A DNA stretch of 21,605 bases from a virus (lineage: Duplodnaviria > Heunggongvirae > Uroviricota > Caudoviricetes). How positions within the stretch are numbered: position 1 is the first letter of the stretch; each line of letters begins with the position of its first letter. This document shows, one piece after another, positions 2,966-19,196 of the stretch. The stretch lies in IMG/VR virus record IMGVR_UViG_2681813318_000014, one strand, 5' to 3'. Position numbers and translations under genes: made by a program. The notes under the pieces were generated by a model, which did no database searches, was not told the origin of the DNA, and saw nothing but the letters and a program-made list of their open reading frames with translations.

Positions 2966-3062
2966 AAAAGAATGGTTGGGTGTATGAGATAGGTTCTATC
3001 GAATCTATAACACGGGGAGAGATTATCGAGTGATATCGGTAGTTTCTCCCTTTTTTGTATGT

Positions 3063-3129
3063 GTGCTACGTGAAATCTTCTGAACAGATATACCCACCAA
3101 AAATTATTTTTTACGTAGCTCACGCTTAA
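3063..3129. repeat. about 65-bp conserved element, copy A, immediately upstream of the tape-measure-like gene
   Basis: CTACGTGAA...ATACCCAC-CAAAAATTATTTTTTACGTAGCTCACGCTTAA; a 32-bp core is identical to copy B at 5326-5392; contains the internal inverted repeat GCTACGT...ACGTAGC about 41 bp apart. Confidence 0.6.
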
Positions 3130-3147
3130 AGAGGTGAAAAAATATGA

Positions 3148-5316
3148 ATGGCACAATTTAAAGTTGATGATTTTCTGATTGAGTTAAGTTTTAACTCTCA
3201 GAAAGTTTTAAAAGGCTTGGAAAAAGCCGAGAAACAAACGATGCAGGTAGCATCACGAATTGAGAAGCGATTGAATAAAGCTTTTAAAGTTAACCCTACG
3301 CCTTTAAATGATTCTCTCAAGGTCATGGAAAGAAATGTCGATAAAACTGTTTCCAAGATTGAGCAGCGTCTTAAAAACACTAGAGTGTTTAAGATTAAAA
3401 CGGAAATTGAGGATACTTTAAAGCCACTTAGACAACCAAGACAGCCACGAATTAGCGGCAACAGAGCAATCACAGCAGCTTACTCAGCGAATATGAGCAA
3501 GCTAAAAGGCTTTGACCCTATTTTGCAGAAATACATCAAATCTCAGTTTTACGGGCTATCTGCTAAAGCCGGGTCAATGGATAATTCAAAATTCAATGAG
3601 AAGCTGGCTCAGCTAAATGCTTCAGTCAGAGAAGCAATTGCTAAAGCTAAAGGTCATACATCCACCAGCATTAATAATACAAGCGACGCATTTAATAATC
3701 TTGCAAGCAATGCAATTAAGTTATCTGGTGCATTTTACTCTGTGATGGGTGCTCTTAACGCTTACAAGGCCATTATGAATGCAGGTCTTAAACGAGATTC
3801 CGCACAGAGAGCCGCTAAGTTTGTACTTGGTGATAAAGCATCTGAGGCTGAAACATTTATCAGGGGACTGGCTGACAAGACAGGTCTTAATATCTCTGAA
3901 GGGCTATCAAGCTACGCTAAGTTTGCAGCAGGTGCTCAGGGTTCTATGTCACAGGAACAGACACAGGAGCTATTTGGTAATGCAACGGCTATGAGTCGCT
4001 TAATGGGGCTTAGTAATGATGAGCTAAACGGCATTTTGAAAGCTTTTGAGCAGATGGCTTCTAAGGGCAAGATTCAGGCTGAAGAATTACGTGGGCAGTT
4101 AGGTGACCGTATGGCTGGTGCATTTAAGCTATTCGCTGAAGCACTGGGTATGACTGCTACAGAGCTTGATAAAGCGATGAAAGACGGGAAGATTTTAAGT
4201 AGTGATACTCTCCCTAAAGTCGCTAAACAGATGGGCTTGATGATTGATAAAGCGGGTGGCTGGGCTGAAGTCGCTAAGAGCACCCAGACAGCTTTAGGTA
4301 AGTTAGCAAACAACTGGGATGATACGATGGTGAAAATCTTCTCAGGTTCACAGGATGAGCTAAACGGCTTCTTATCCAGCCTGAGTAACCTGCTTAGTGA
4401 AATGGGGATGAGTTCTTCTATCGCTGGTGATGCTATCGGTGGGCTTATCGACATGCTTAAAGCTGGTGTAGATGATATTCGCGTATTCAATAACACCATT
4501 GAAGGCTGGATTTTACAGGTTAAAAAGTTCTATTACAGCCTTGATGACACTAAACGAAAACTACTTGATGAAGTCGGTGATGGTTTTATCAATTTTGTCA
4601 AAGGTCTTGCTATAGCGTTATCTGCAAAGACGCTATTCAGTGCCACTACAGGGGTTATGAACCTGACAAGAGCAATCACAACGTTAGGTACAAGAGCTAA
4701 TCAGGTGGCTGGTCAGGTAGCTACTGGTAAAGGTGGTGAAAAACTGAAAGGTGTAGCTGGTGGTGTAGGTAGTGCTCTTGCAATTGGTTATGCTGATGAC
4801 GGTTATGAAACAGCGTTAGCATTAGCTTCAATGATTCCACAAATCAGAGGTGTCACCCTTGGTTTATATGCATTGAAGAAAGCACTGGATTTTATGAATC
4901 AGGAAGTAGTCAAAAACGCTAACATGCATCCATCTGGGGTAGGTGTGGGTAGTGACTTTAATCCTGTGTATTCTGGTGACCCTAATAAACCGAATATGAT
5001 TAATGAAGGGTGGATTAAAATTTTTAGTTCAATGGGTGAATTGTTTAACAATGCCACAATGAATATTGCAAGATTCAATCATCCAGAATTAAACAACATT
5101 AAGCAAGAAGCATCACTAACCAGCGCAGATATTCAAAGTCTGAGGGATGAAATCTCTGCTTTAAGTAAGCGTATTCAGGAGCCTGTGAAAGTTTCACTTG
5201 GTGGTGAAGTTGCCATTAAACCAGATGAAACATCGTTTATGACCTTTAGCGGTAATATTTACGACCAATACGCAGAAGCTACGCTATTAAGTTCATCATT
5301 TCCAGAAGATGATTGA
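3148..5316 (+). CDS. tape-measure-domain protein (phage tail length tape measure-like), 722 aa
   Basis: Segment LKAFEQMASKGKIQAEELRGQLGDRMAGAFKLFAEALGMTATELDKAMKDGKILSSDTLP matches the conserved tape-measure motif as recalled from memory; central Gly/Ala-rich hydrophobic segments; GAGGTG RBS upstream. Confidence 0.7.
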   Translation: MAQFKVDDFLIELSFNSQKVLKGLEKAEKQTMQVASRIEKRLNKAFKVNPTPLNDSLKVMERNVDKTVSKIEQRLKNTRVFKIKTEIEDTLKPLRQPRQPRISGNRAITAAYSANMSKLKGFDPILQKYIKSQFYGLSAKAGSMDNSKFNEKLAQLNASVREAIAKAKGHTSTSINNTSDAFNNLASNAIKLSGAFYSVMGALNAYKAIMNAGLKRDSAQRAAKFVLGDKASEAETFIRGLADKTGLNISEGLSSYAKFAAGAQGSMSQEQTQELFGNATAMSRLMGLSNDELNGILKAFEQMASKGKIQAEELRGQLGDRMAGAFKLFAEALGMTATELDKAMKDGKILSSDTLPKVAKQMGLMIDKAGGWAEVAKSTQTALGKLANNWDDTMVKIFSGSQDELNGFLSSLSNLLSEMGMSSSIAGDAIGGLIDMLKAGVDDIRVFNNTIEGWILQVKKFYYSLDDTKRKLLDEVGDGFINFVKGLAIALSAKTLFSATTGVMNLTRAITTLGTRANQVAGQVATGKGGEKLKGVAGGVGSALAIGYADDGYETALALASMIPQIRGVTLGLYALKKALDFMNQEVVKNANMHPSGVGVGSDFNPVYSGDPNKPNMINEGWIKIFSSMGELFNNATMNIARFNHPELNNIKQEASLTSADIQSLRDEISALSKRIQEPVKVSLGGEVAIKPDETSFMTFSGNIYDQYAEATLLSSSFPEDD

Positions 5317-13131: not shown

Positions 13132-13369
13132 TTCTTACCTGTTTAAGTAACTGGTTGAACATAACACTTAGGGGATTGCTGTATCCAAACGGCAGATTGT
13201 TTACGCAGTACAGAATCATTTTGTTTTTTTCTCCAGTTCGTACTATTAACCCATTCCACAATAACCGTGATAATTCATTACTGATAGAAGTTGCGCTTCT
13301 TCCAAGTGCGAGGGATATATCTTCTCTACTGCAATCTGGATTTTCCTGGATATACTCGATAACGGTCAT
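13121..13369 (-). CDS. small winged-helix/HTH-like protein (82 aa)
   Basis: Start moved to ATG 13369 (AAGGGA RBS right after the upstream stop); segment CSREDISLALGRSATSISNELSRLLWNGLIV looks like an HTH. Confidence 0.45.
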   Translation of the reverse strand: MTVIEYIQENPDCSREDISLALGRSATSISNELSRLLWNGLIVRTGEKNKMILYCVNNLPFGYSNPLSVMFNQLLKQVRNGN

Positions 13370-13379
13370 GTGGTCCCTT

Positions 13380-13961
13380 TTACTTAATATCTGTTTCGGA
13401 TTGCATGCCATGAGTATTCATTTCGTTAATAATTTCATCCAGAAGGATTTCAAGCCCTTCTCGACCCATATCTGAAAGAATGAAACCTTTATCAGGGGAA
13501 GTAGTGAGCATTTTCTGATAAAGAAACAGCGCTCTTCCCATTCCTTCAGCTTCGCCGTATTTTTGAATTAAATTCCATTCAATATACTGTTGTAAGGCAA
13601 ATCGAATGGGGCCGGGATATATCGTCATAAACCCATACATCCCGTTATATACCACGGCGTGTTCAGTTGTTCCGTGTTCATTCAGGATATCAATTGTGCC
13701 GTTCTTGTCTTCTTCTTCGTTGATGAATGTCGTCACATACAACCATCGCCACTGAGCAACCTTCATCTCAACCGGAAGTTTACCCAGTAATCCTGCTTCG
13801 TCGGCTTGCGCCAGACACTGAAGGATACGTAAACCTCGCACATTAGGAGTATCGAATTCTCCGGCATCCAGACGACGTATGGCGTCGTGATAATCAATCG
13901 TCATACTGCCAGTTCGTATACCATTGGCTGTTGCTTCAGCCTGGAATTCATCGTATTGCAT
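13380..13961 (-). CDS. hypothetical protein (193 aa)
   Basis: ATG 13961 with GAGGAA RBS 8 nt upstream; no recognised motif. Confidence 0.55.
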   Translation of the reverse strand: MQYDEFQAEATANGIRTGSMTIDYHDAIRRLDAGEFDTPNVRGLRILQCLAQADEAGLLGKLPVEMKVAQWRWLYVTTFINEEEDKNGTIDILNEHGTTEHAVVYNGMYGFMTIYPGPIRFALQQYIEWNLIQKYGEAEGMGRALFLYQKMLTTSPDKGFILSDMGREGLEILLDEIINEMNTHGMQSETDIK

Positions 13962-13966
13962 GATAT

Positions 13967-14155
13967 TTATTCCTCATCTTCATCTTCATCTGCTGGTGCA
14001 ATAACGTCATATCCTGCCCTTTCTGCAATAAACAGGAATGTTGAAAGAGTTCCTACAAGTTCATCGTCATGAACATGGCGAATGAATATTACTTTCCCGT
14101 TTTTGATGGTCAGCAATATTCTGGTTTGTTCGTGTTCTGCTGTTTTCTGATGCAT
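13967..14155 (-). CDS. small acidic hypothetical protein (62 aa)
   Basis: ATG 14155 with GGGAGA RBS; C-terminal DEDEDEE tail. Confidence 0.45.
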   Translation of the reverse strand: MHQKTAEHEQTRILLTIKNGKVIFIRHVHDDELVGTLSTFLFIAERAGYDVIAPADEDEDEE

Positions 14156-14157
14156 TA

Positions 14158-14271
14158 TTATCTCCCGTATGCTTTACGCAGAAATAAGCAGGCAATATGC
14201 ATGTAATTTTCACCGTATTGTGCAATAAGGCAGGCGGTCTTGTGTGATGCCATATTCTTTATAAAAGTCAC
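14158..14271 (-). CDS. possible 37-aa ORF in the 195-bp intergenic region
   Basis: GTG start with AGGAGG RBS 7 nt upstream; stop overlaps the RBS of the next gene; weak. Confidence 0.2.
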   Translation of the reverse strand: MTFIKNMASHKTACLIAQYGENYMHIACLFLRKAYGR

Positions 14272-14304
14272 AATAAAGCCTCCTGTGGATTAAGGTTGTA
14301 ACAA

Positions 14305-14346
14305 TCCCCGGCGATAAAACCGCAATAAACGTTCAGGGCATATTTG
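14305..14346 (-). terminator. terminator-like hairpin after the 121-aa gene
   Basis: Minus-strand reading: GCAATAAC...GTTTATTGC stem starting 4 nt after the stop, followed by GGTTTTAT. Confidence 0.35.
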
Positions 14347-14349
14347 TTG

Positions 14350-14715
14350 TTATTGCGCTAATTCTTTTTCGGCAGCAGCTTTTGTATACTCACATGCAAA
14401 ACTCAGAATTTCGCTGCCGAGTGTTTTCGTTTCGTGATTACTGGACATATGTAATACCTGTGTTGCATGCAATAAATGATAAACATTTACCGCAAATGAA
14501 TCAGGCTCCAGACAAATGCCTTCGTAATTATCTTGCTGTGAGGTTGTTTCTGTCATTGCTCCTGAAGTGCATGCGAGCCTGTTTTTGACAATTCTCTTTT
14601 CTCTAATCACTATATCGGCAACATCTATTGCCTTTACAACCTCCGGGAGAAGTTCCGGGTTTGTATAATCAAAGTCATCAACATGGAGAACAGTTATGTT
14701 TTCGAACTTTTTCAT
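14350..14715 (-). CDS. hypothetical protein (121 aa), second gene of the cI-adjacent module
   Basis: ATG 14715 with GAGGAAG RBS 4 nt upstream; no recognised motif. Confidence 0.55.
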   Translation of the reverse strand: MKKFENITVLHVDDFDYTNPELLPEVVKAIDVADIVIREKRIVKNRLACTSGAMTETTSQQDNYEGICLEPDSFAVNVYHLLHATQVLHMSSNHETKTLGSEILSFACEYTKAAAEKELAQ

Positions 14716-14846
14716 GGCTTCCTCAGCTGACTTATATGTTCTGCTATATAGCGAGTCTCAGAAGTGTTTTCATATTGAGACTGTTTCCGCAATGATTGAT
14801 AAAAATGTTCGCATGTACCTTGAAGGGCGAAGCGGCGATTATGTCA

Positions 14847-15392
14847 CTATTGGTATTGGTTCTTCCGCAGAAGAGCTTCGCGAGATAAGGGGCAAACTTG
14901 TTGAGATGCGTCATGGTGTTGCTGCTCCTCACTTTTTGGTTGCTCCGGAGGAGTAACCTCACCAGTTAACAGCCACATCGGATCGCAGCCAAGAATATTT
15001 GCCAGTGGGATAAGCATACTGATAGTTGGTTCATACTCTCCGCTCTCCCACTGGATGATAATTTCTTCATCGAGATCGAGCAGCCTGGCGAGTTCGGCGG
15101 TTGTTAAGCCGCAGGCTTCGCGTTGGGTGCGAAGGTTAACCAGCCAGCTTTCAGGGAAGGATTGTTTTTGTTGTGCAGGAGAAGCAGCAGATAGAGCATA
15201 TTCATGGATAAATTCCATTACCTCAATGCCCAGTTCCTTTGAGCGAGCACAATCCAGAAGATGGAATGTGCGTACAGCACTTAGCAAATTTGCAATATTT
15301 AATGCAAAGGAATCAAGTTCTAAGCCCTTAAGCGTAACACAGCCGCAGTTGATAAAATTAGTTGTTTCTGGAGTTGCTTTTAGTGTCTTCAT
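14847..15392 (-). CDS. two-domain protein with C-terminal XRE-type helix-turn-helix (181 aa from ATG 15392)
   Basis: HTH segment LTTAELARLLDLDEEIIIQWESGEYEPTISMLIPLANILGCDPMWLL; the track start at 15422 is a TTG, the first ATG is at 15392; the N-terminal 90 residues are unassigned. Confidence 0.55.
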   Translation of the reverse strand: MKTLKATPETTNFINCGCVTLKGLELDSFALNIANLLSAVRTFHLLDCARSKELGIEVMEFIHEYALSAASPAQQKQSFPESWLVNLRTQREACGLTTAELARLLDLDEEIIIQWESGEYEPTISMLIPLANILGCDPMWLLTGEVTPPEQPKSEEQQHHDASQQVCPLSREALLRKNQYQ

Positions 15393-15444
15393 ATATCCGC
15401 CAACAATTTTAAATTGAATCAAATCAAGTTATAATTGATGGTGC

Positions 15445-15473
15445 GATATTATGTTTTGGGAAACAGGCTGTCA
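15445..15473 (-). promoter_or_regulatory. PL-like early-left promoter
   Basis: Minus strand TTGACA (complement of 15468-15473), 17-bp spacer, TAATAT (complement of 15445-15450); near-palindrome ATCAAGTTATAATTGAT at 15423-15439 just downstream, operator-like. Confidence 0.45.
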
Positions 15474-15503
15474 AGAAAAAATTGATATCGTATATTTCAG
15501 GCA

Positions 15504-15525
15504 GAAAAAAACGGGCAAAGCCCGT
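15504..15525 (-). terminator. intrinsic terminator after the cI gene
   Basis: Minus-strand hairpin ACGGGC-TTT-GCCCGT followed by a T7 run, 13 nt after the cI stop. Confidence 0.5.
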
Positions 15526-15537
15526 TAAAATCAAAGA

Positions 15538-16227
15538 CTAACCAAATCTGTTTATGTTGAATGGTACTGATGAGATCACTTTAGACTGGATATAAAGCAG
15601 AGCTAACCCCTCTTTTTCGATGCTCCATGGTTGATAATTGGGGTTATCAGATAACACCATGATTTTGCTTCCAATTTTTTGAAGCCTTTTCACGTAGCAT
15701 TCTCCATCAAAACAAAATGCATAAATACCATCGCCATCAAAATAAGTTACTGTCTTATCAAGAAAAAGAAGGTCGCCAGGTGAGATTGTGGGAGCCATAC
15801 TGTCTCCTCTGGCGTTACCTATTTCTATATTTTTGAATGCCCGATTTCCAACAAGACGTCGGGCATATTCAGGATCAAGTTCTATTGAGCGCACTACATC
15901 TATCAAGTCACCACGGACATGAGTTCCATCACCGCAACTAAACTCAACATCAAGGACATTAAATACGACGCTATCTGTTCTTGTCTGGTGTTTCTCTTGC
16001 GAGGAAAAGGTTGGTGAGGAGTCTTCACCTAAGAACCAGGATTGTGGATAACCGCTAATCTCTGATAAATGCGCGAGCTTATCACTCCGTGGAAATGTTT
16101 TTCCTGTTGTCCAGTACTGCACTGATTGCGCACTCACACCTAACTTGCGGGCCAGTTGAGCCTGAGTCCATCCTTTTGCTTTCAGCATCGCGGCTATTCG
16201 ATTTTCCGTGTTTTTGACGTTCTTCAT
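15538..16227 (-). CDS. cI: prophage repressor, cI-like (HTH plus LexA-type S24 peptidase domain), 229 aa
   Basis: N-terminal HTH (WTQAQLARKLGVSAQSVQYW); C-terminal autocleavage domain with Ser in GDSMAPT and Lys in VKRL; divergent from a cro-like gene; start moved to ATG 16227 (track start is TTG). Confidence 0.85.
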   Translation of the reverse strand: MKNVKNTENRIAAMLKAKGWTQAQLARKLGVSAQSVQYWTTGKTFPRSDKLAHLSEISGYPQSWFLGEDSSPTFSSQEKHQTRTDSVVFNVLDVEFSCGDGTHVRGDLIDVVRSIELDPEYARRLVGNRAFKNIEIGNARGDSMAPTISPGDLLFLDKTVTYFDGDGIYAFCFDGECYVKRLQKIGSKIMVLSDNPNYQPWSIEKEGLALLYIQSKVISSVPFNINRFG

Positions 16228-16233
16228 GACCAA

Positions 16234-16360
16234 ATCCTGTGGGTTTCTTTACAAGGATAAATCTTTACTTGATTTTAGTGTATTCGATCCTTTTGTAACT
16301 TGCATGTTAATTTAAACTTGATGTATTCTTGATTTATAAAGTTAATATTGGTGCTTTGTT
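16234..16360. promoter_or_regulatory. immunity-region operator/promoter zone between cI and cro
   Basis: Three imperfect 17-bp sites ending in ACTTGAT/CTTGAT (16257-16273, 16306-16322, 16317-16333) related to the palindrome next to the PL-like promoter; TAATAT -10-like hexamer at 16343-16348. Confidence 0.45.
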
Positions 16361-16633
16361 ATGGAAGGAAATGATTACGACAAACTTCGTGCATTAATTG
16401 CGCAAAATGCCATAGCGCGAAATCTTGGTGTGACGCCGCAAGCGGTGAATCAGTGGTTTTCAAAAAACACAATTCCTGCTCGTTTCGTTTTACGCGTATG
16501 TGAAGTAGTTGCATGGAAGGTCACGCCACATGGCTTAAGGCCAGATCTTTATCCTCACCCTGAAGATGGAATTCCTGATTCGTTACGCAAAATTTCAAAT
16601 CCAAGCTTAGCGCACACAGAGGACGAGAAGTGA
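16361..16633 (+). CDS. cro: Cro-like repressor, YdaS-type HTH (90 aa)
   Basis: Divergent from cI; segment NLGVTPQAVNQWFSKNTIPARFVLRVCEVVAWKVTPHGLRPDLYP fits the YdaS/Cro-type HTH family as recalled. Confidence 0.7.
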   Translation: MEGNDYDKLRALIAQNAIARNLGVTPQAVNQWFSKNTIPARFVLRVCEVVAWKVTPHGLRPDLYPHPEDGIPDSLRKISNPSLAHTEDEK

Positions 16634-16673
16634 TGGTGGTGATATGAGCGAAAAAATAACTATTAAATACGAT

Positions 16674-16696
16674 GGGGCAACCATTTCGATTGCCCC
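16674..16696 (-). terminator. hairpin downstream of the antisense moron gene
   Basis: GGGGCAA-9 nt-TTGCCCC stem; on the minus strand a U-rich stretch follows but is not immediately adjacent; weak. Confidence 0.25.
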
Positions 16697-16703
16697 AATC
16701 ACA

Positions 16704-16997
16704 TTAGCGTTCGCTGAGAAGTTGTTGGTAAGCCTTAAAGGATGCGAACTGCATTCTACCTTCGGCATTGATTCCAATGCCTTCGCTTGTACACCAGGTG
16801 ATGAACTCGGCTGTATCCGCTTCAACTTTAATAACTCGTTGCCCGCTTCTTTCGACACGCTTAATCAATTTTTCAGCGTCGTGTTTCCACTCGGTGTAAC
16901 TGTCGGAGAGCACATCAGCATCAGTAAAAATATTTTTGAGCTCATGATACTGAATCGCATCGCGAAACCAGAATAAACCAACGGCCTGAACTTTCAT
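16704..16997 (-). CDS. hypothetical protein (97 aa) encoded antisense within the early-right operon (moron-like)
   Basis: ATG 16997 with AAGGAGG RBS 7 nt upstream; opposite strand to cro and the rha genes; no recognised motif. Confidence 0.5.
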   Translation of the reverse strand: MKVQAVGLFWFRDAIQYHELKNIFTDADVLSDSYTEWKHDAEKLIKRVERSGQRVIKVEADTAEFITWCTSEGIGINAEGRMQFASFKAYQQLLSER

Positions 16998-17116
16998 GTC
17001 GAACCTCCTTTGGTTCTTTTGTTTATAGGGATCAAAAGGATAACTGAAGGAAGGTTCGGCACCAATAAGTACGAATGTGCGGAATCTTAAAAGAATTTAT
17101 CCGTAAGGAGATGGCA

Positions 17117-17824
17117 GTGAACACCGCAATTTTTAACGACAAAGCATCCATGACCAGCGTTGAGATCGCAGAGCTGGTGGGTAAACGTCATGACAATGTG
17201 AAACGCACTATTGAAACATTAGCCAAAGGTGGCGTTGTCCGGTCTCCTCAAATTGAGGTTTCCGAAAGAATCAATAACTTAGGTTTTAAAGTTCAATATG
17301 AGCATTACCTGTTTGAAGGAGAACAAGGTAAGCGCGACAGCATCATTGTCGTCGCACAGCTCTGTCCTGAATTCACTGCTCGCCTGGTAGATCGCTGGCG
17401 CGAACTGGAAGAACAGATCCGTAAGCCAATGAGCGAAATCGAAATGGTTGCCGCGATGGCTCTTGAAGCCGTTCGCCAACAGAAACGGATCACTCAGGTG
17501 GAAGAAAAAGTCAGCCACGTTGCTGAAACAGTCGAGCAAATTAAAAAGGGCACTATTCGTGAGGGCTATGCCGGATATCGCCAACTGAAAGCAAAAACCG
17601 GTTTGTCAGATGATAAATGCCGCAATCTGGTGAACGCCTATCAGATTCCTACAGACACCCATGAGTTCATGACGCCGGACGGATTGTTGTCACGTCGCGC
17701 AATTGTTGCTGTGGAACCGTTTATGGCTGCTTTTTATCGGGTTATGGAGGAAGCAGAACCGCGAGGGACTCGCTGGTATCACCCGAAAATGGGGTTATTT
17801 CAGGTTATTGGTTGGCAGCGGTGA
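17117..17824 (+). CDS. phage regulatory protein, Rha family (about 235 aa)
   Basis: Motif SVEIAELVGKRHDNVKRTIETL matches the Rha-family N-terminal signature as recalled; the track ATG at 17075 has no RBS; ATG 17111 abuts AAGGAG with no spacer, so GTG 17117 (6-nt spacer) is favoured; the start is uncertain by a few codons. Confidence 0.65.
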   Translation: MNTAIFNDKASMTSVEIAELVGKRHDNVKRTIETLAKGGVVRSPQIEVSERINNLGFKVQYEHYLFEGEQGKRDSIIVVAQLCPEFTARLVDRWRELEEQIRKPMSEIEMVAAMALEAVRQQKRITQVEEKVSHVAETVEQIKKGTIREGYAGYRQLKAKTGLSDDKCRNLVNAYQIPTDTHEFMTPDGLLSRRAIVAVEPFMAAFYRVMEEAEPRGTRWYHPKMGLFQVIGWQR

Positions 17825-17847
17825 AAAAAAGCCGGGAGTAACCCGGC
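17824..17847 (-). terminator. strong intrinsic-terminator hairpin oriented for the minus strand
   Basis: GCCGGG-AGTAA-CCCGGC (17831-17847) with the run 17824-17830 giving U7 on the minus strand; begins at the Rha stop codon. Confidence 0.45.
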
Positions 17848-18232
17848 TCACTCAACATCAATAACGGGGAGCTGTTTCGCATAAAACGGCTCCGAAACAT
17901 CCAAGAACAGTTCTAAAGATATCAGCAGCTATATGATCATTTCAAGACCAAATATTGATTCTGCAATTTCGGGACGTTACACTGTCTCTGCACCTTATAA
18001 AGCGGGTGCCGGGGGTCGCAGCCCGGAATTGTCAACGGCGATATATGACGCGCCAGCGTCTTTTTTATCGTCCGCGCTCACGCACGCCAGAATTATGGTG
18101 GGCTGGGCAGGGGAGCCGAAAGGCTCGCCGGTCTCCGTTGACGCCGGTACTGCGAACCCTGTTCAGTCTGCCACCAGTGAGTTTCGCAGCTCCGGTGGTG
18201 GAAGTTTTCCACAGTCAACGGAGGCTGCCATC

Positions 18233-18784
18233 ATGGCTACGATCCCAACCCTCACTCAACCTGAAATTGCCATCGTTGATGGTCAGGCTGTTACTTCATC
18301 CCTGGCTGTTGCCAACTTCTTCTCCAAGCGTCATGACGATGTACTGAAAAAGATCCGCACGCTTGAATGCTCCGCATCATTCACTGCCCGCAATTTTTCG
18401 GTGAGTGATTACACCGATTGCACAGGCCGCAAACTACCTTGCTATCAAATCACCCGTGATGGCTTCGCGTTCCTTGCTATGGGCTTTACTGGCAAACGTG
18501 CAGCCCGGTTCAAAGAGGCATACATCAACGCCTTTAACCTGATGGAGAAGAGTTTATCAGGTGCCGATGCGTCTGATATGTCAGCTGTCGCACGAAACGC
18601 CAGAGGCGTATACCTGCATTTGCGTGAAATCCATCAAATCTGGACAAGCCAGCTTTATCCAATGCTTAAGGCCGTTGAATCTCCGCTGGCTAGCAAACTG
18701 TACGACCGTGTTGGTGATGCTGTTTTTGGCGCTGCACTTGTTGATTCCAGGCTGAATGGTTCTGACAAGGAGGTTCGCCCATGA
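18233..18784 (+). CDS. second Rha-family-like regulatory protein (183 aa)
   Basis: ATG 18233 with GGAGG 9 nt upstream; motif AVTSSLAVANFFSKRHDDVLKKIRTLE; the track's longer version (from 17933) adds a GC-rich low-complexity extension with no RBS. Confidence 0.65.
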   Translation: MATIPTLTQPEIAIVDGQAVTSSLAVANFFSKRHDDVLKKIRTLECSASFTARNFSVSDYTDCTGRKLPCYQITRDGFAFLAMGFTGKRAARFKEAYINAFNLMEKSLSGADASDMSAVARNARGVYLHLREIHQIWTSQLYPMLKAVESPLASKLYDRVGDAVFGAALVDSRLNGSDKEVRP

Positions 18785-18975
18785 TTAGTTACGAAATCAT
18801 CATCTCCACTACGGAATACAGAAACGATGTATCAGTTCGCACGGATGTATCTGTCTGGCACCGTCGCTATAAATCCAGAAAAACAGCGGAACTGAAAGCG
18901 GCAGAGATGTGTGAAACCATCTCAATGAAAGGTAGCCCGGTTAAATACGTAACTACGGTGGAGGTGCGTCCATGA
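18781..18975 (+). CDS. small hypothetical phage protein (64 aa)
   Basis: ATG in ATGA overlap with upstream stop; AAGGAGG RBS. Confidence 0.5.
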   Translation: MISYEIIISTTEYRNDVSVRTDVSVWHRRYKSRKTAELKAAEMCETISMKGSPVKYVTTVEVRP

Positions 18976-19196
18976 TCCGCCACATCGTTAATTCCCTGTA
19001 TCACCGATACAACCGTTGCCCCCGTGTGGGGCAGTGGTTCGCCACCAGCAACGGTCACGTTCTGCGGGTTTGCCTAGTCAACGCTGAAAGCCAGAAAGTC
19101 GTGTGCGAACTACAGGGGCGTAGCTACACCATCAGTTACCCTCTGGCGGTATTTCTGTCTGGAAAAATGTTTAAGCGTCTGGGAGGTGTGGCGTGA
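18972..19196 (+). CDS. small hypothetical phage protein (74 aa), Cys/His-containing
   Basis: ATG in ATGA overlap; GAGGTG RBS. Confidence 0.5.
   Translation: MIRHIVNSLYHRYNRCPRVGQWFATSNGHVLRVCLVNAESQKVVCELQGRSYTISYPLAVFLSGKMFKRLGGVA

What the first reader, a model, noticed from the sequence alone, without database searches (positions are those of the whole stretch)
16634..17074. Antisense moron gene embedded between cro and the Rha genes
A 97-aa ORF on the opposite strand has a near-perfect RBS (AAGGAGG, 7-nt spacer), a downstream hairpin and a 75-bp upstream region containing an 11/12-bp inverted repeat (CGAACCTCCTT / AAGGAAGGTTCG). The early-right transcript must read through it in antisense. 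Independently transcribed genes in this position are typically lysogeny-expressed cargo.
Basis: partly seen in the sequence, partly recalled or inferred. Interest (0 to 1): 0.45.

Follow-up and report, generated by a model that had tools for sequence, protein, structure and literature searches.

The report
Swappable antisense cargo gene after cro
A small conserved gene of unknown function sits backwards between a prophage's cro and Rha genes, in a slot where related prophages carry nothing or a different small gene behind the same promoter and leader, so it is a typical accessory ("moron") gene, but in a slot I found no description of.

Summary
The minus-strand ORF 16704-16997 (97 aa) is a real gene. 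It matches phrog_4753 end to end, is under strong purifying selection (dN/dS 0.03-0.12, dS>1) and gives a confident fold (pLDDT 94.6). The overlapping plus ORF evolves neutrally and has no family.

The moron reading is supported by comparison. Phage PhiR49_2 has the same backbone but lacks 16622-17105. Other prophages with the same cI/cro replace exactly 16639-16994 with a BssS-like gene.

It is conserved in front of at least five other cargo types, always antisense between cro and the next early-right gene. This is an exchangeable cargo slot.

The protein belongs to a large uncharacterised family (1128 clusters). Its only structural relative is SO3848, probably through that protein's non-DNA-binding domain. 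Its function is unknown.

Expression in lysogens, the transcription start and any role of the inverted repeat are all untested. Covariation support for the repeat is marginal.

The parts
16361..16633 (+). cro (YdaS-type helix-turn-helix, 90 aa), the left neighbour, convergent with the cargo gene
   Evidence: Pfam YdaS_toxin 1.6e-12 and phrog_35. PGAP calls it 'transcriptional regulator'.
16601..16638 (+). Left mosaic junction of the slot: the last ~11 codons of cro (…PSLAHTEDEK) plus 5 nt. Otherwise unrelated cro alleles share this stretch.
   Evidence: SE11-type loci match the window only from 16601. The BssS-cargo locus L075 matches up to 16638. The 69-aa cro ends with the same decapeptide.
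16622..17105 (.). Segment absent from the closely related phage PhiR49_2, where 16 bp stand in its place and cro overlaps roi
   Evidence: blastn of the window against L001; annotation of PV340570.
16639..16994 (-). The exchangeable cargo unit: the coding sequence after the ATG plus the terminator. In prophages with the same cI/cro a BssS-like gene with its own terminator replaces it.
   Evidence: Similarity to L075 and L142 breaks at 16638 and resumes exactly at 16995. Pfam BssS 1.3e-15.
16673..16697 (-). Terminator-like hairpin of the cargo gene (GGGGCAATC…GGTTGCCCC, then a T-rich tail)
   Evidence: In diverged loci the variable stem positions keep pairing only in the minus-strand RNA (A-U to G·U, U·G to U-A, G-C to G·U). 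The U-tract is imperfect, so efficiency is unknown.
16704..16997 (-). 97-aa protein-coding gene (X family, phrog_4753), a soluble alpha/beta protein with order strand-helix-helix-strand-helix-helix
   Evidence: Maximum hydropathy is 0.42, so there is no membrane segment.
16644..16976 (+). Codon-aligned antisense shadow ORF (110 aa); not a protein-coding gene
   Evidence: dN/dS about 1 and no family. This antisense frame has 0-1 stops in all family members, whether embedded or not.
16995..17065 (-). Conserved control region ('head'): -35, spacer, -10, leader, ribosome-binding site and ATG. The same region stands in front of unrelated cargo genes.
   Evidence: 26 distinct versions with 82% mean column identity. 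It is the same in EKP1, where the X protein is only 34% identical. At least five other cargo types sit behind it. It occurs in 87 E. coli genomes.
17060..17065 (-). -35-like hexamer TTGGTG of the candidate promoter P1
   Evidence: Position-weight score 7.8, at or above the 99.9th percentile of the window and similar to the PR/PRM candidates. It is the top or second candidate in all 5 diverged contexts, at a fixed distance from the ATG.
17037..17042 (-). -10-like hexamer TATCCT of P1 (TATTCT or TGnTATTCT in relatives). The predicted start is near 17030, giving a leader of about 30 nt.
   Evidence: The A and T of the hexamer are kept in all 26 heads although they lie outside the search pattern. 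Loci L046 and L067, where X lies left of cI, have TGnTATTCT/TGnTATACT at the same distance.
17004..17010 (-). Shine-Dalgarno sequence AAGGAGG, 6 nt before the ATG
   Evidence: Sequence. GGAG is invariant in the 26 heads.
17000..17010 (.). Proximal arm of the inverted repeat (covers the ribosome-binding site)
17047..17058 (.). Distal arm of the inverted repeat; lies in the spacer of P1
17075..17116 (+). Possible remnant of the 5' end of a phrog_4439 gene (M..EFIRKE), in frame with Rha. That gene is the usual right neighbour of the slot elsewhere.
   Evidence: Shared TTTATCCGTAAG and (D/E)F(I/L)(R/K)K with L034 and EKP1. The evidence is weak.
17117..17824 (+). Rha/Roi-type regulator, the right neighbour, with its own AAGGAG ribosome-binding site
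   Evidence: PGAP start; Pfam Phage_pRha; alignment with roi of PhiR49_2.

Best explanation
The finding is a self-contained accessory-gene cassette (a moron) in a conserved cargo slot of lambdoid enterobacterial prophages. The slot lies immediately downstream of cro, on the strand opposite to the early-right operon.

Shown by comparison: the slot can be empty (PhiR49_2). It can hold this 97-aa gene. It can also hold at least five other small genes, one of them BssS-like. All of these sit between the same two flanks, the 3' tail of cro and a ~70-nt control region.

Inferred: the cargo is transcribed leftward from a weak-to-moderate sigma-70 promoter in that region (TTGGTG-17-TATCCT). It is translated from a near-consensus ribosome-binding site, and its transcript ends at its own hairpin 6 nt after the stop codon.

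Inferred from geometry only: the gene converges on PR, so it should be expressed when CI keeps PR off, that is in the lysogen. After induction, polymerase collisions and antisense RNA from PR should shut it down.

Inferred, weaker: the inverted repeat puts a sequence complementary to the ribosome-binding site inside the promoter spacer. Transcripts that start at the gene's own promoter would then have a free ribosome-binding site. Transcripts entering from upstream would fold it away. This is the layout known from IS10.

Protein: a soluble 97-aa alpha/beta domain from a large uncharacterised family, with no DNA-binding or catalytic signature. Its fold resembles only SO3848, most likely that protein's non-helix-turn-helix, oligomerisation part. 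I therefore infer that it acts by binding another protein, as a lysogen-expressed effector. Its target and phenotype are unknown.
For: The gene is real and constrained.

Presence/absence between adjacent genes.

Cargo replacement with breakpoints at 16638 and 16995 in an otherwise 98% identical immunity region.

The same control region stands in front of X, BssS-like, phrog_5286, a ~155-aa family, an 88-aa and 68-70-aa ORFs, in every checked case between cro and the next rightward gene.

The control region is kept at the DNA level where X has diverged to 34% identity (EKP1).

A promoter-like site is conserved at a fixed distance.

The hairpin comes after the stop codon, and its substitutions are compatible only with minus-strand RNA.

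There is no good plus-strand promoter or terminator in the insert.

Other family members occupy other moron-type positions (beside cI, an integrase, tail genes).

Fold: read.
Against: There are no expression data of any kind, and the promoter is only a consensus match (-35 matches 3 of 6, -10 matches 4 of 6).

The hairpin has a poor U-tract.

Base composition is not foreign (GC 0.44-0.46, like the flanks).

Covariation for the inverted repeat is marginal: 84.5% of cells are paired against 83.9% in shuffles, and 5 double changes against 2.8. The repeat folds at least as well on the plus strand. One lineage, L036, has largely lost it.

There is no hit to known defence systems and no partner gene. 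Two natural nonsense alleles show the gene is dispensable.

Which part of SO3848 the protein matches is inferred, not read from an alignment.
Confidence: 0.65

Rival explanations
1. The plus-strand ORF 16644-16976 is the real gene, the next cistron after cro, and the minus ORF is its shadow.
For: The plus ORF is open (110 aa) and starts 11 nt after the cro stop. In relatives the equivalent frame starts right at the cro stop behind a Shine-Dalgarno-like GGGAGG/GGAGG. The EKP1 annotators called that strand.
Against: dN/dS is about 1 for that frame against 0.03-0.12 for the minus frame, and substitutions pile up at minus-frame third positions. It has no family in Pfam, PHROGs, NCBIfam or PADLOC. 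The minus product has 1128 relatives and a pLDDT of 94.6. The codon-aligned antisense frame is open in family members that are not embedded at all.
Confidence: 0.02
2. The unit is part of the lysis-lysogeny switch rather than cargo. It would be a leftward transcription unit in the place of lambda's PRE/oop. Its read-through RNA would oppose cro, or its protein would bind Cro, CI or Rha as a decoy oligomerisation domain.
For: X-family genes lie directly beside the cI-cro pair and converge on one of the two regulators in 5 of 11 independent lineages, down to 32-38% identity. The hairpin has a weak U-tract, so read-through into cro is possible. The only structural relative is part of a helix-turn-helix regulator, SO3848, which is Aca2-like.
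Against: PhiR49_2 lacks the unit on the same backbone. The same slot and control region carry unrelated cargos with identical cI/cro. The module sits behind different immunity alleles, so it cannot be allele-specific. In other lineages X converges on cI, not cro, so there is no consistent antisense target. X shows no similarity to the neighbouring regulators. Nonsense alleles exist.
Confidence: 0.12
3. The cargo is specifically an anti-phage exclusion or defence factor, or an anti-defence factor. The slot would be a defence hot spot like those of P2/P4.
For: The slot has conserved flanks with rapidly exchanged, mostly unknown small genes, predicted to be lysogen-specific. This is the pattern described for the P2/P4 hot spots (PMC9122126, listed).
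Against: No cargo hits PADLOC. One cargo is BssS-like, a host-physiology family. X is under strong purifying selection, with no sign of an arms race. All cargos are single small proteins without enzymatic domains.
Confidence: 0.2
4. The inverted repeat works on the plus strand or on DNA, not as a fold-back on the cargo mRNA. It could be an RNase III or stabiliser hairpin in the PR transcript just upstream of the next gene's ribosome-binding site, or a protein-binding site over the promoter.
For: The plus-strand fold is more stable in 5 of 6 lineages: -29.3 against -22.4 kcal/mol in the window. The hairpin ends about 5 nt before the ribosome-binding site of the rightward neighbour in L034-type loci. 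The promoter spacer is unusually conserved.
Against: No U-tract follows, so it is not a terminator. In L036 the plus-strand fold collapses while the minus-strand fold survives. The element is shared by phages of different immunity, so it is not a CI/Cro operator. It occurs once per locus. There is no Rfam match.
Confidence: 0.25

Closest known systems
Morons of lambdoid phages (the Hendrix/Juhala concept; examples are lambda bor and lom, and HK97 gp15). Named from my own knowledge.
   Same: An extra gene between two genes that are adjacent in a close relative. It has its own promoter-like and terminator-like signals and is predicted to be expressed from the prophage. It is dispensable.
   Different: It lies antisense inside the early-right operon, directly after cro. 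Its base composition is not atypical. It shares its promoter and leader with alternative cargos, so it is an allele of a slot rather than a one-off insertion.
[quoted passage not shown]
   Same: Conserved flanks with diverse cargo swapped between otherwise similar elements.
   Different: The cargos here are single small ORFs of 68-157 aa with no recognised defence domain. The conserved flank includes the promoter, leader, ribosome-binding site and start codon. The location and orientation (antisense after cro) differ.
SO3848 of Shewanella oneidensis (PDB 2OX6), an Aca2/YdiL-like helix-turn-helix protein (PMC8434428)
   Different: There is no helix-turn-helix domain. Sequence identity is 11%. 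Profile searches do not connect the two. Aca2 and YdiL themselves are not hit. Which part of SO3848 aligns is inferred.
Fold-back inhibition in IS10/Tn10, which protects the transposase gene from activation by outside promoters (from my own knowledge: Davis, Simons and Kleckner 1985)
   Same: An inverted repeat pairs an upstream segment with the ribosome-binding site, and the gene's own promoter lies between the arms. Only internally started transcripts would then be translatable.
   Different: This is entirely untested here. Covariation is marginal, and the hairpin folds as well on the other strand.
Leftward transcripts next to cro/cII in lambda (PRE transcript, oop RNA). From my own knowledge.
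   Same: A leftward transcription unit embedded in the early-right operon close to cro.
   Different: The unit encodes a conserved protein, has a hairpin before cro, is absent from a close relative and carries exchangeable cargo. No CII-type repeat flanks the -35.

Membership tests
Moron (accessory transcription unit in a phage genome) | Present between two genes that are adjacent in a closely related phage | tested here: met
   PhiR49_2 is 99% identical up to 16621 and 91% from 17106, with cro and roi overlapping.
Moron (accessory transcription unit in a phage genome) | Own promoter | tested here: inconclusive
   TTGGTG-17-TATCCT scores at or above the 99.9th percentile and is conserved at a fixed distance in diverged contexts and in 26 heads. 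The strict consensus scan did not list it. There is no transcript evidence.
Moron (accessory transcription unit in a phage genome) | Own terminator | tested here: inconclusive
   A stable hairpin starts 6 nt after the stop codon, and its substitutions are specific to the minus strand. The U-tract is interrupted.
Moron (accessory transcription unit in a phage genome) | Base composition different from the flanks | tested here: not met
   GC is 0.44-0.46 across 16600-16999 and 0.40-0.46 in the flanks. This feature is frequent in morons but not obligatory.
Moron (accessory transcription unit in a phage genome) | Expressed from the repressed prophage | not testable with these tools
   Needs strand-specific RNA-seq or a reporter in a lysogen.
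PHROG 4753 (X family) | Full-length profile match | tested here: met
   E = 1.8e-49 over residues 1-97 of 97. A profile of close homologs finds 1128 representatives.
Aca2/YdiL/SO3848-type helix-turn-helix regulators | N-terminal helix-turn-helix DNA-binding domain | tested here: not met
Aca2/YdiL/SO3848-type helix-turn-helix regulators | C-terminal dimerisation domain with a parallel two-stranded sheet | tested here: inconclusive
Known anti-phage defence systems (PADLOC-DB 2.0) | Profile match to a defence protein | tested here: not met
   No hit for X or for any alternative cargo.
IS10-type fold-back inhibition | Upstream segment complementary to the ribosome-binding site, with the gene's own promoter between the arms | tested here: met
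   The arms are at 17047-17058 and 17000-17010. The -35 (17060-17065) and -10 (17037-17042) flank the distal arm. This holds only if P1 is the real promoter.
IS10-type fold-back inhibition | Pairing maintained by selection (covariation) and translation blocked in read-through transcripts | tested here: inconclusive
   84.5% of cells are paired against at most 48% in slid controls, but only marginally above shuffles (16 of 500 and 26 of 500). The effect on translation cannot be tested here.
Toxin-antitoxin pair | Conserved two-gene operon with a partner | tested here: not met
   No constant co-oriented neighbour appears across 11 lineages.

The most novel reading that the evidence does not exclude
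The position directly after cro, antisense to PR, is a general hot spot for accessory genes in lambdoid enterobacterial prophages, and I found no description of it.

Unrelated small cargos are plugged in at the start codon behind one shared 'head' of promoter, leader and ribosome-binding site.

The geometry makes every cargo strictly lysogeny-specific: PR read-through switches it off on induction. The head's inverted repeat insulates translation from outside transcripts, as in IS10.

The X family (1128 clusters, no annotation) would then be a new class of lysogen effectors built on a free-standing SO3848-type oligomerisation domain.
Probability: 0.3. Interest if true: 0.65.

Novelty: new member of a known kind. 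Interest (0 to 1): 0.48.

Why it matters
The gene is an ordinary kind of object, a prophage accessory gene, and every database calls its product hypothetical.

What is useful is the slot. One conserved ~70-nt promoter and leader, found with a 16-nt pattern, retrieves a set of unrelated, mostly unannotated small genes. All of them are predicted to be expressed only in lysogens. That gives a cheap handle for finding and testing lysogeny-expressed effectors in E. coli, Salmonella, Klebsiella and their relatives.

The antisense placement after cro is also a simple, testable design for coupling cargo expression to the state of the lysis-lysogeny switch.

The X family is large (1128 clusters at 50% identity) and folds confidently into a fold with only one solved relative. 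A phenotype for one member would annotate many proteins.

Tried and rejected
1. The plus-strand ORF as the real gene. Rejected on dN/dS and the lack of any family.

2. A 'bridge ORF' idea: the shadow frame is kept open so that ribosomes cover the PR transcript. The control shows 0-1 stops in the codon-aligned antisense frame of family members that are not embedded, so openness is not specific. The ATGA stop/start overlaps could be chance. It stays only as a remark.

3. RNA-structure proof for the inverted repeat. Covariation is marginal with 10 sequences and with 26.

4. Strand assignment of the long hairpin by stability. Ambiguous.

5. Known RNA families. None found.

6. Sequence relationship of X to the neighbouring regulators (the 191-aa helix-turn-helix protein and the 121-aa protein). 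None.

7. Domain fusions that might reveal function. The longer family members are mis-called starts or tandem copies, and Pfam finds nothing in them.

8. PDB by sequence profile. Nothing below E = 0.09. BFVD gives only uncharacterised proteins. The AFDB library was not available.

9. Wider locus collection. Single distant proteins and broad alignments gave few or no loci.

10. A plus-strand terminator at 17001-17016. It has a 5-bp stem and is not conserved in relatives, so it is unlikely to be an efficient terminator.

11. The palindrome GTGACATGTCAC as a repeated operator. It occurs once per locus.

12. Literature. No paper mentions the protein accession, the PHROG or PhiR49_2, and none describes this slot.

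Full report
**What is in the window**

The window is the early region of an E. coli lambdoid prophage of the phiP27/PhiR49_2 type. The gene order is:
- cI, 15538-16233, minus strand (Peptidase_S24 plus helix-turn-helix);
- cro, 16361-16633, plus strand (YdaS-type helix-turn-helix);
- a 97-aa ORF, 16704-16997, minus strand;
- a Rha/Roi gene, plus strand, starting at GTG 17117;
- an Ash-Rha gene, 17933-18784, plus strand, followed by replication genes.

- AAGGAGG lies 6 nt, not 7, before the ATG.
- A hairpin at 16697-16673 starts 6 nt after the stop codon.
- An 11-pair, one-bulge inverted repeat has arms at 17000-17010 and 17047-17058.

**Which strand codes**

The minus ORF matches phrog_4753 over all 97 residues (E = 1.8e-49), and RefSeq annotates it (WP_000867914.1).

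I compared the window with loci that are 74-82% identical at the protein level. The minus frame has dN/dS of 0.03-0.12 with dS above 1, and 42-52 of 64-75 differences are at third codon positions. The codon-aligned plus frame has dN/dS of 0.8-1.4. The plus ORF 16644-16976 has no family in any library.

That antisense frame stays open in all relatives, but this is not informative. The same frame has 0-1 stops in family members that are not embedded in any operon.

**Is it a moron?**

Phage PhiR49_2 is 99.3% identical to the window over 13300-16621 and 90.8% identical over 17106-19189. In place of 16622-17105 it has 16 bp, and its cro and roi overlap.

The module occurs in 91 of 5426 complete E. 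coli genomes. It also sits behind a different cI/cro pair (SE11 type), with the similarity starting at 16601, inside the last codons of cro.

In relatives from other genera the gene is again the first thing after cro, convergent with it. There it is followed by a cII-like gene, a phrog_4439 gene or the replication gene instead of Rha.

**The main new result: the upstream region is an independent unit**

In phage EKP1 the X protein is only 34% identical. Yet the ~70 nt before its ATG are nearly the same as in the enterobacterial loci, and so is the divergent neighbour, phrog_4439.

I searched IMG/VR for the 16-nt core TTGGTGCCGAACCTNCC and got 78 loci. They fall into three groups:
- About 29 are chance hits without the rest of the region.
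- 25 carry an X-family ORF.
- About 24 carry the full region, through GGAGGTTCGACATG, in front of other ORFs.

The other ORFs are:
- an 83-aa BssS-family protein (Pfam 1.3e-15);
- a 145-157-aa family (phrog_5286);
- a roughly 155-aa family;
- an 88-aa ORF;
- 68-70-aa ORFs.

In 13 of the 14 loci checked the order is the same: right-hand early gene, control region, cargo, cro, cI. No neighbours could be identified in the fourteenth.

Locus L075 has the same cI (100%) and cro (97%) as the window. There the similarity stops at 16638 and resumes exactly at the ATG, 16995. Only the coding sequence and its terminator were exchanged.

PGAP annotates 'bssS family protein' behind the same region in several RefSeq E. 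coli genomes.

So the finding is one allele of a cargo slot. The slot has conserved flanks: the tail of cro on one side and a promoter/leader 'head' on the other.

**Signals**

The best promoter candidate is TTGGTG (17065-17060), 17 nt, TATCCT (17042-17037). It has these properties:
- It scores like the PR/PRM candidates of this phage.
- It is the first or second candidate in each of five diverged contexts, at a fixed 36-39 nt from the ATG.
- Its -10 positions are kept in 26 distinct heads, although they were not part of the search pattern.

The strict consensus scan did not list this site. A second candidate further upstream (TTCACT-16-TAAATT) exists in the window but is not general.

The terminator hairpin is conserved in position. 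Its variable stem positions keep pairing only as minus-strand RNA, but its U-tract is interrupted.

On the plus strand the insert has no good promoter (best score 5.7) and only a weak, non-conserved 5-bp terminator-like hairpin. This fits the inference that PR transcripts cross the insert to reach Rha and the replication genes.

**The inverted repeat**

The repeat is the core of a hairpin of about 25 bp covering nearly the whole head.

For it:
- Its complementarity to the ribosome-binding site exceeds dinucleotide shuffles (13 of 1000 in the window, 3-15 of 1000 in three other lineages, 84 of 1000 in L036).
- It exceeds slid-register controls (84.5% of cells paired against at most 48%).

Against it:
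- Both arms are themselves conserved, and compensatory changes are few (16 of 500 and 26 of 500 shuffles reach the observed values).
- It folds at least as well on the plus strand.

If P1 is the promoter, the distal arm lies in its spacer. The gene's own transcripts would then lack that arm, and transcripts from upstream would have the ribosome-binding site sequestered. This is the IS10 layout. It remains a hypothesis. The rivals are a plus-strand processing or stabilising hairpin, or a DNA site.

**The protein**

The protein is soluble: the maximum hydropathy is 0.42.

A profile of close homologs finds 1128 representatives at E <= 0.001, mostly 95-105 aa. None has a Pfam, NCBIfam or PADLOC match, and there is no PDB relative by sequence.

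With 59 diverse sequences AlphaFold gives pLDDT 94.6, with all five models agreeing. The order of elements is strand-helix-helix-strand-helix-helix.

SO3848 is an Aca2/YdiL-like protein. It has a helix-turn-helix domain of about 55-60 residues and an enlarged C-terminal dimerisation domain. Three points suggest the resemblance is to the non-DNA-binding domain. No other helix-turn-helix protein is hit. 84 residues cannot fit in the helix-turn-helix domain. The order of elements matches the published description. This is an inference.

Distant family members sit in other typical accessory positions:
- convergent with cI on its left (Kp4865-4 and a Salmonella plasmid-borne prophage);
- next to an integrase;
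- next to tail genes.

One member has an apparently chromosomal context, and one is co-oriented in an early operon (Bcep176).

No constant partner gene exists. Two natural nonsense alleles occur.

**Conclusion**

Lysogen-specific expression and the protein's function remain untested.

I found no description of this slot in the searchable literature. That does not prove it is unknown.

Noticed in passing
L016 4295-5207 (IMGVR_UViG_2874920711_000002): An insertion sequence of about 914 bp (DDE transposase in two frames) sits exactly between the stop codon of the 97-aa gene and its terminator hairpin.
   Followed up: partly
L025 and L032, gene at 4001-4294: Two natural nonsense alleles of the 97-aa gene (W37* and E36*). 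The gene is dispensable in some lysogens.
   Followed up: no
L044 3064-3396 (Elizabethkingia phage EKP1, OM284015): The deposited annotation calls the antisense shadow ORF as a CDS and misses the X-family gene at 3001-3279 on the other strand. This is probably a mis-annotation.
   Followed up: partly
window 16601-16633; L016 5282-5320: Two unrelated cro alleles (90 aa and 69 aa) end with the same …PSLAHTEDEK. A mosaic junction therefore lies inside the cro coding sequence.
   Followed up: partly
L034 4363-4374; L044 3390-3401; L064; L066: A perfect 12-bp palindrome, GTGACATGTCAC, spans the cro stop codon. About 30 nt around it are conserved although the cro genes belong to different families. 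It occurs once per locus. Its function is unknown.
   Followed up: partly
window 17075-17116: The ATG-initiated extension in frame with Rha (MCGILKEFIRKE…) resembles the 5' end of phrog_4439 genes (MNPADFIRKH, MHPVDFLKKH). Those genes are the usual divergent neighbour of the slot. It is likely a recombination remnant.
   Followed up: partly
L075 6373-6624; E. coli genomes (e.g. NZ_CP119734): A prophage-borne BssS-family (biofilm regulator family) gene occupies the same slot behind the identical control region.
   Followed up: partly
window 14350-14715 (-) and 14847-15422 (-): The 121-aa protein and the N-terminal half of the 191-aa helix-turn-helix protein to the left of cI share a domain (phrog_4587/5451/4836). 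They are possibly a regulator and a truncated paralogue.
   Followed up: no
L033 3917-3920; L034 3917-3920: The shadow ORF begins at the cro stop behind a Shine-Dalgarno-like sequence and ends in an ATGA overlap with the next rightward gene. This would fit translation of the antisense stretch of the PR transcript, with the product being irrelevant. A control showed that the open frame is not specific.
   Followed up: partly
P0025 (206 aa) and P0101 (205 aa): P0025 is a tandem duplication of the X domain. P0101 carries a C-terminal extension of about 100 aa that Pfam does not recognise.
   Followed up: no
L046 2440-2500; L067 3440-3500: X-family genes placed to the left of cI (convergent with cI) have a different upstream region but a similar extended -10 (TGnTATTCT / TGnTATACT) at the same distance from the ATG.
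   Followed up: no
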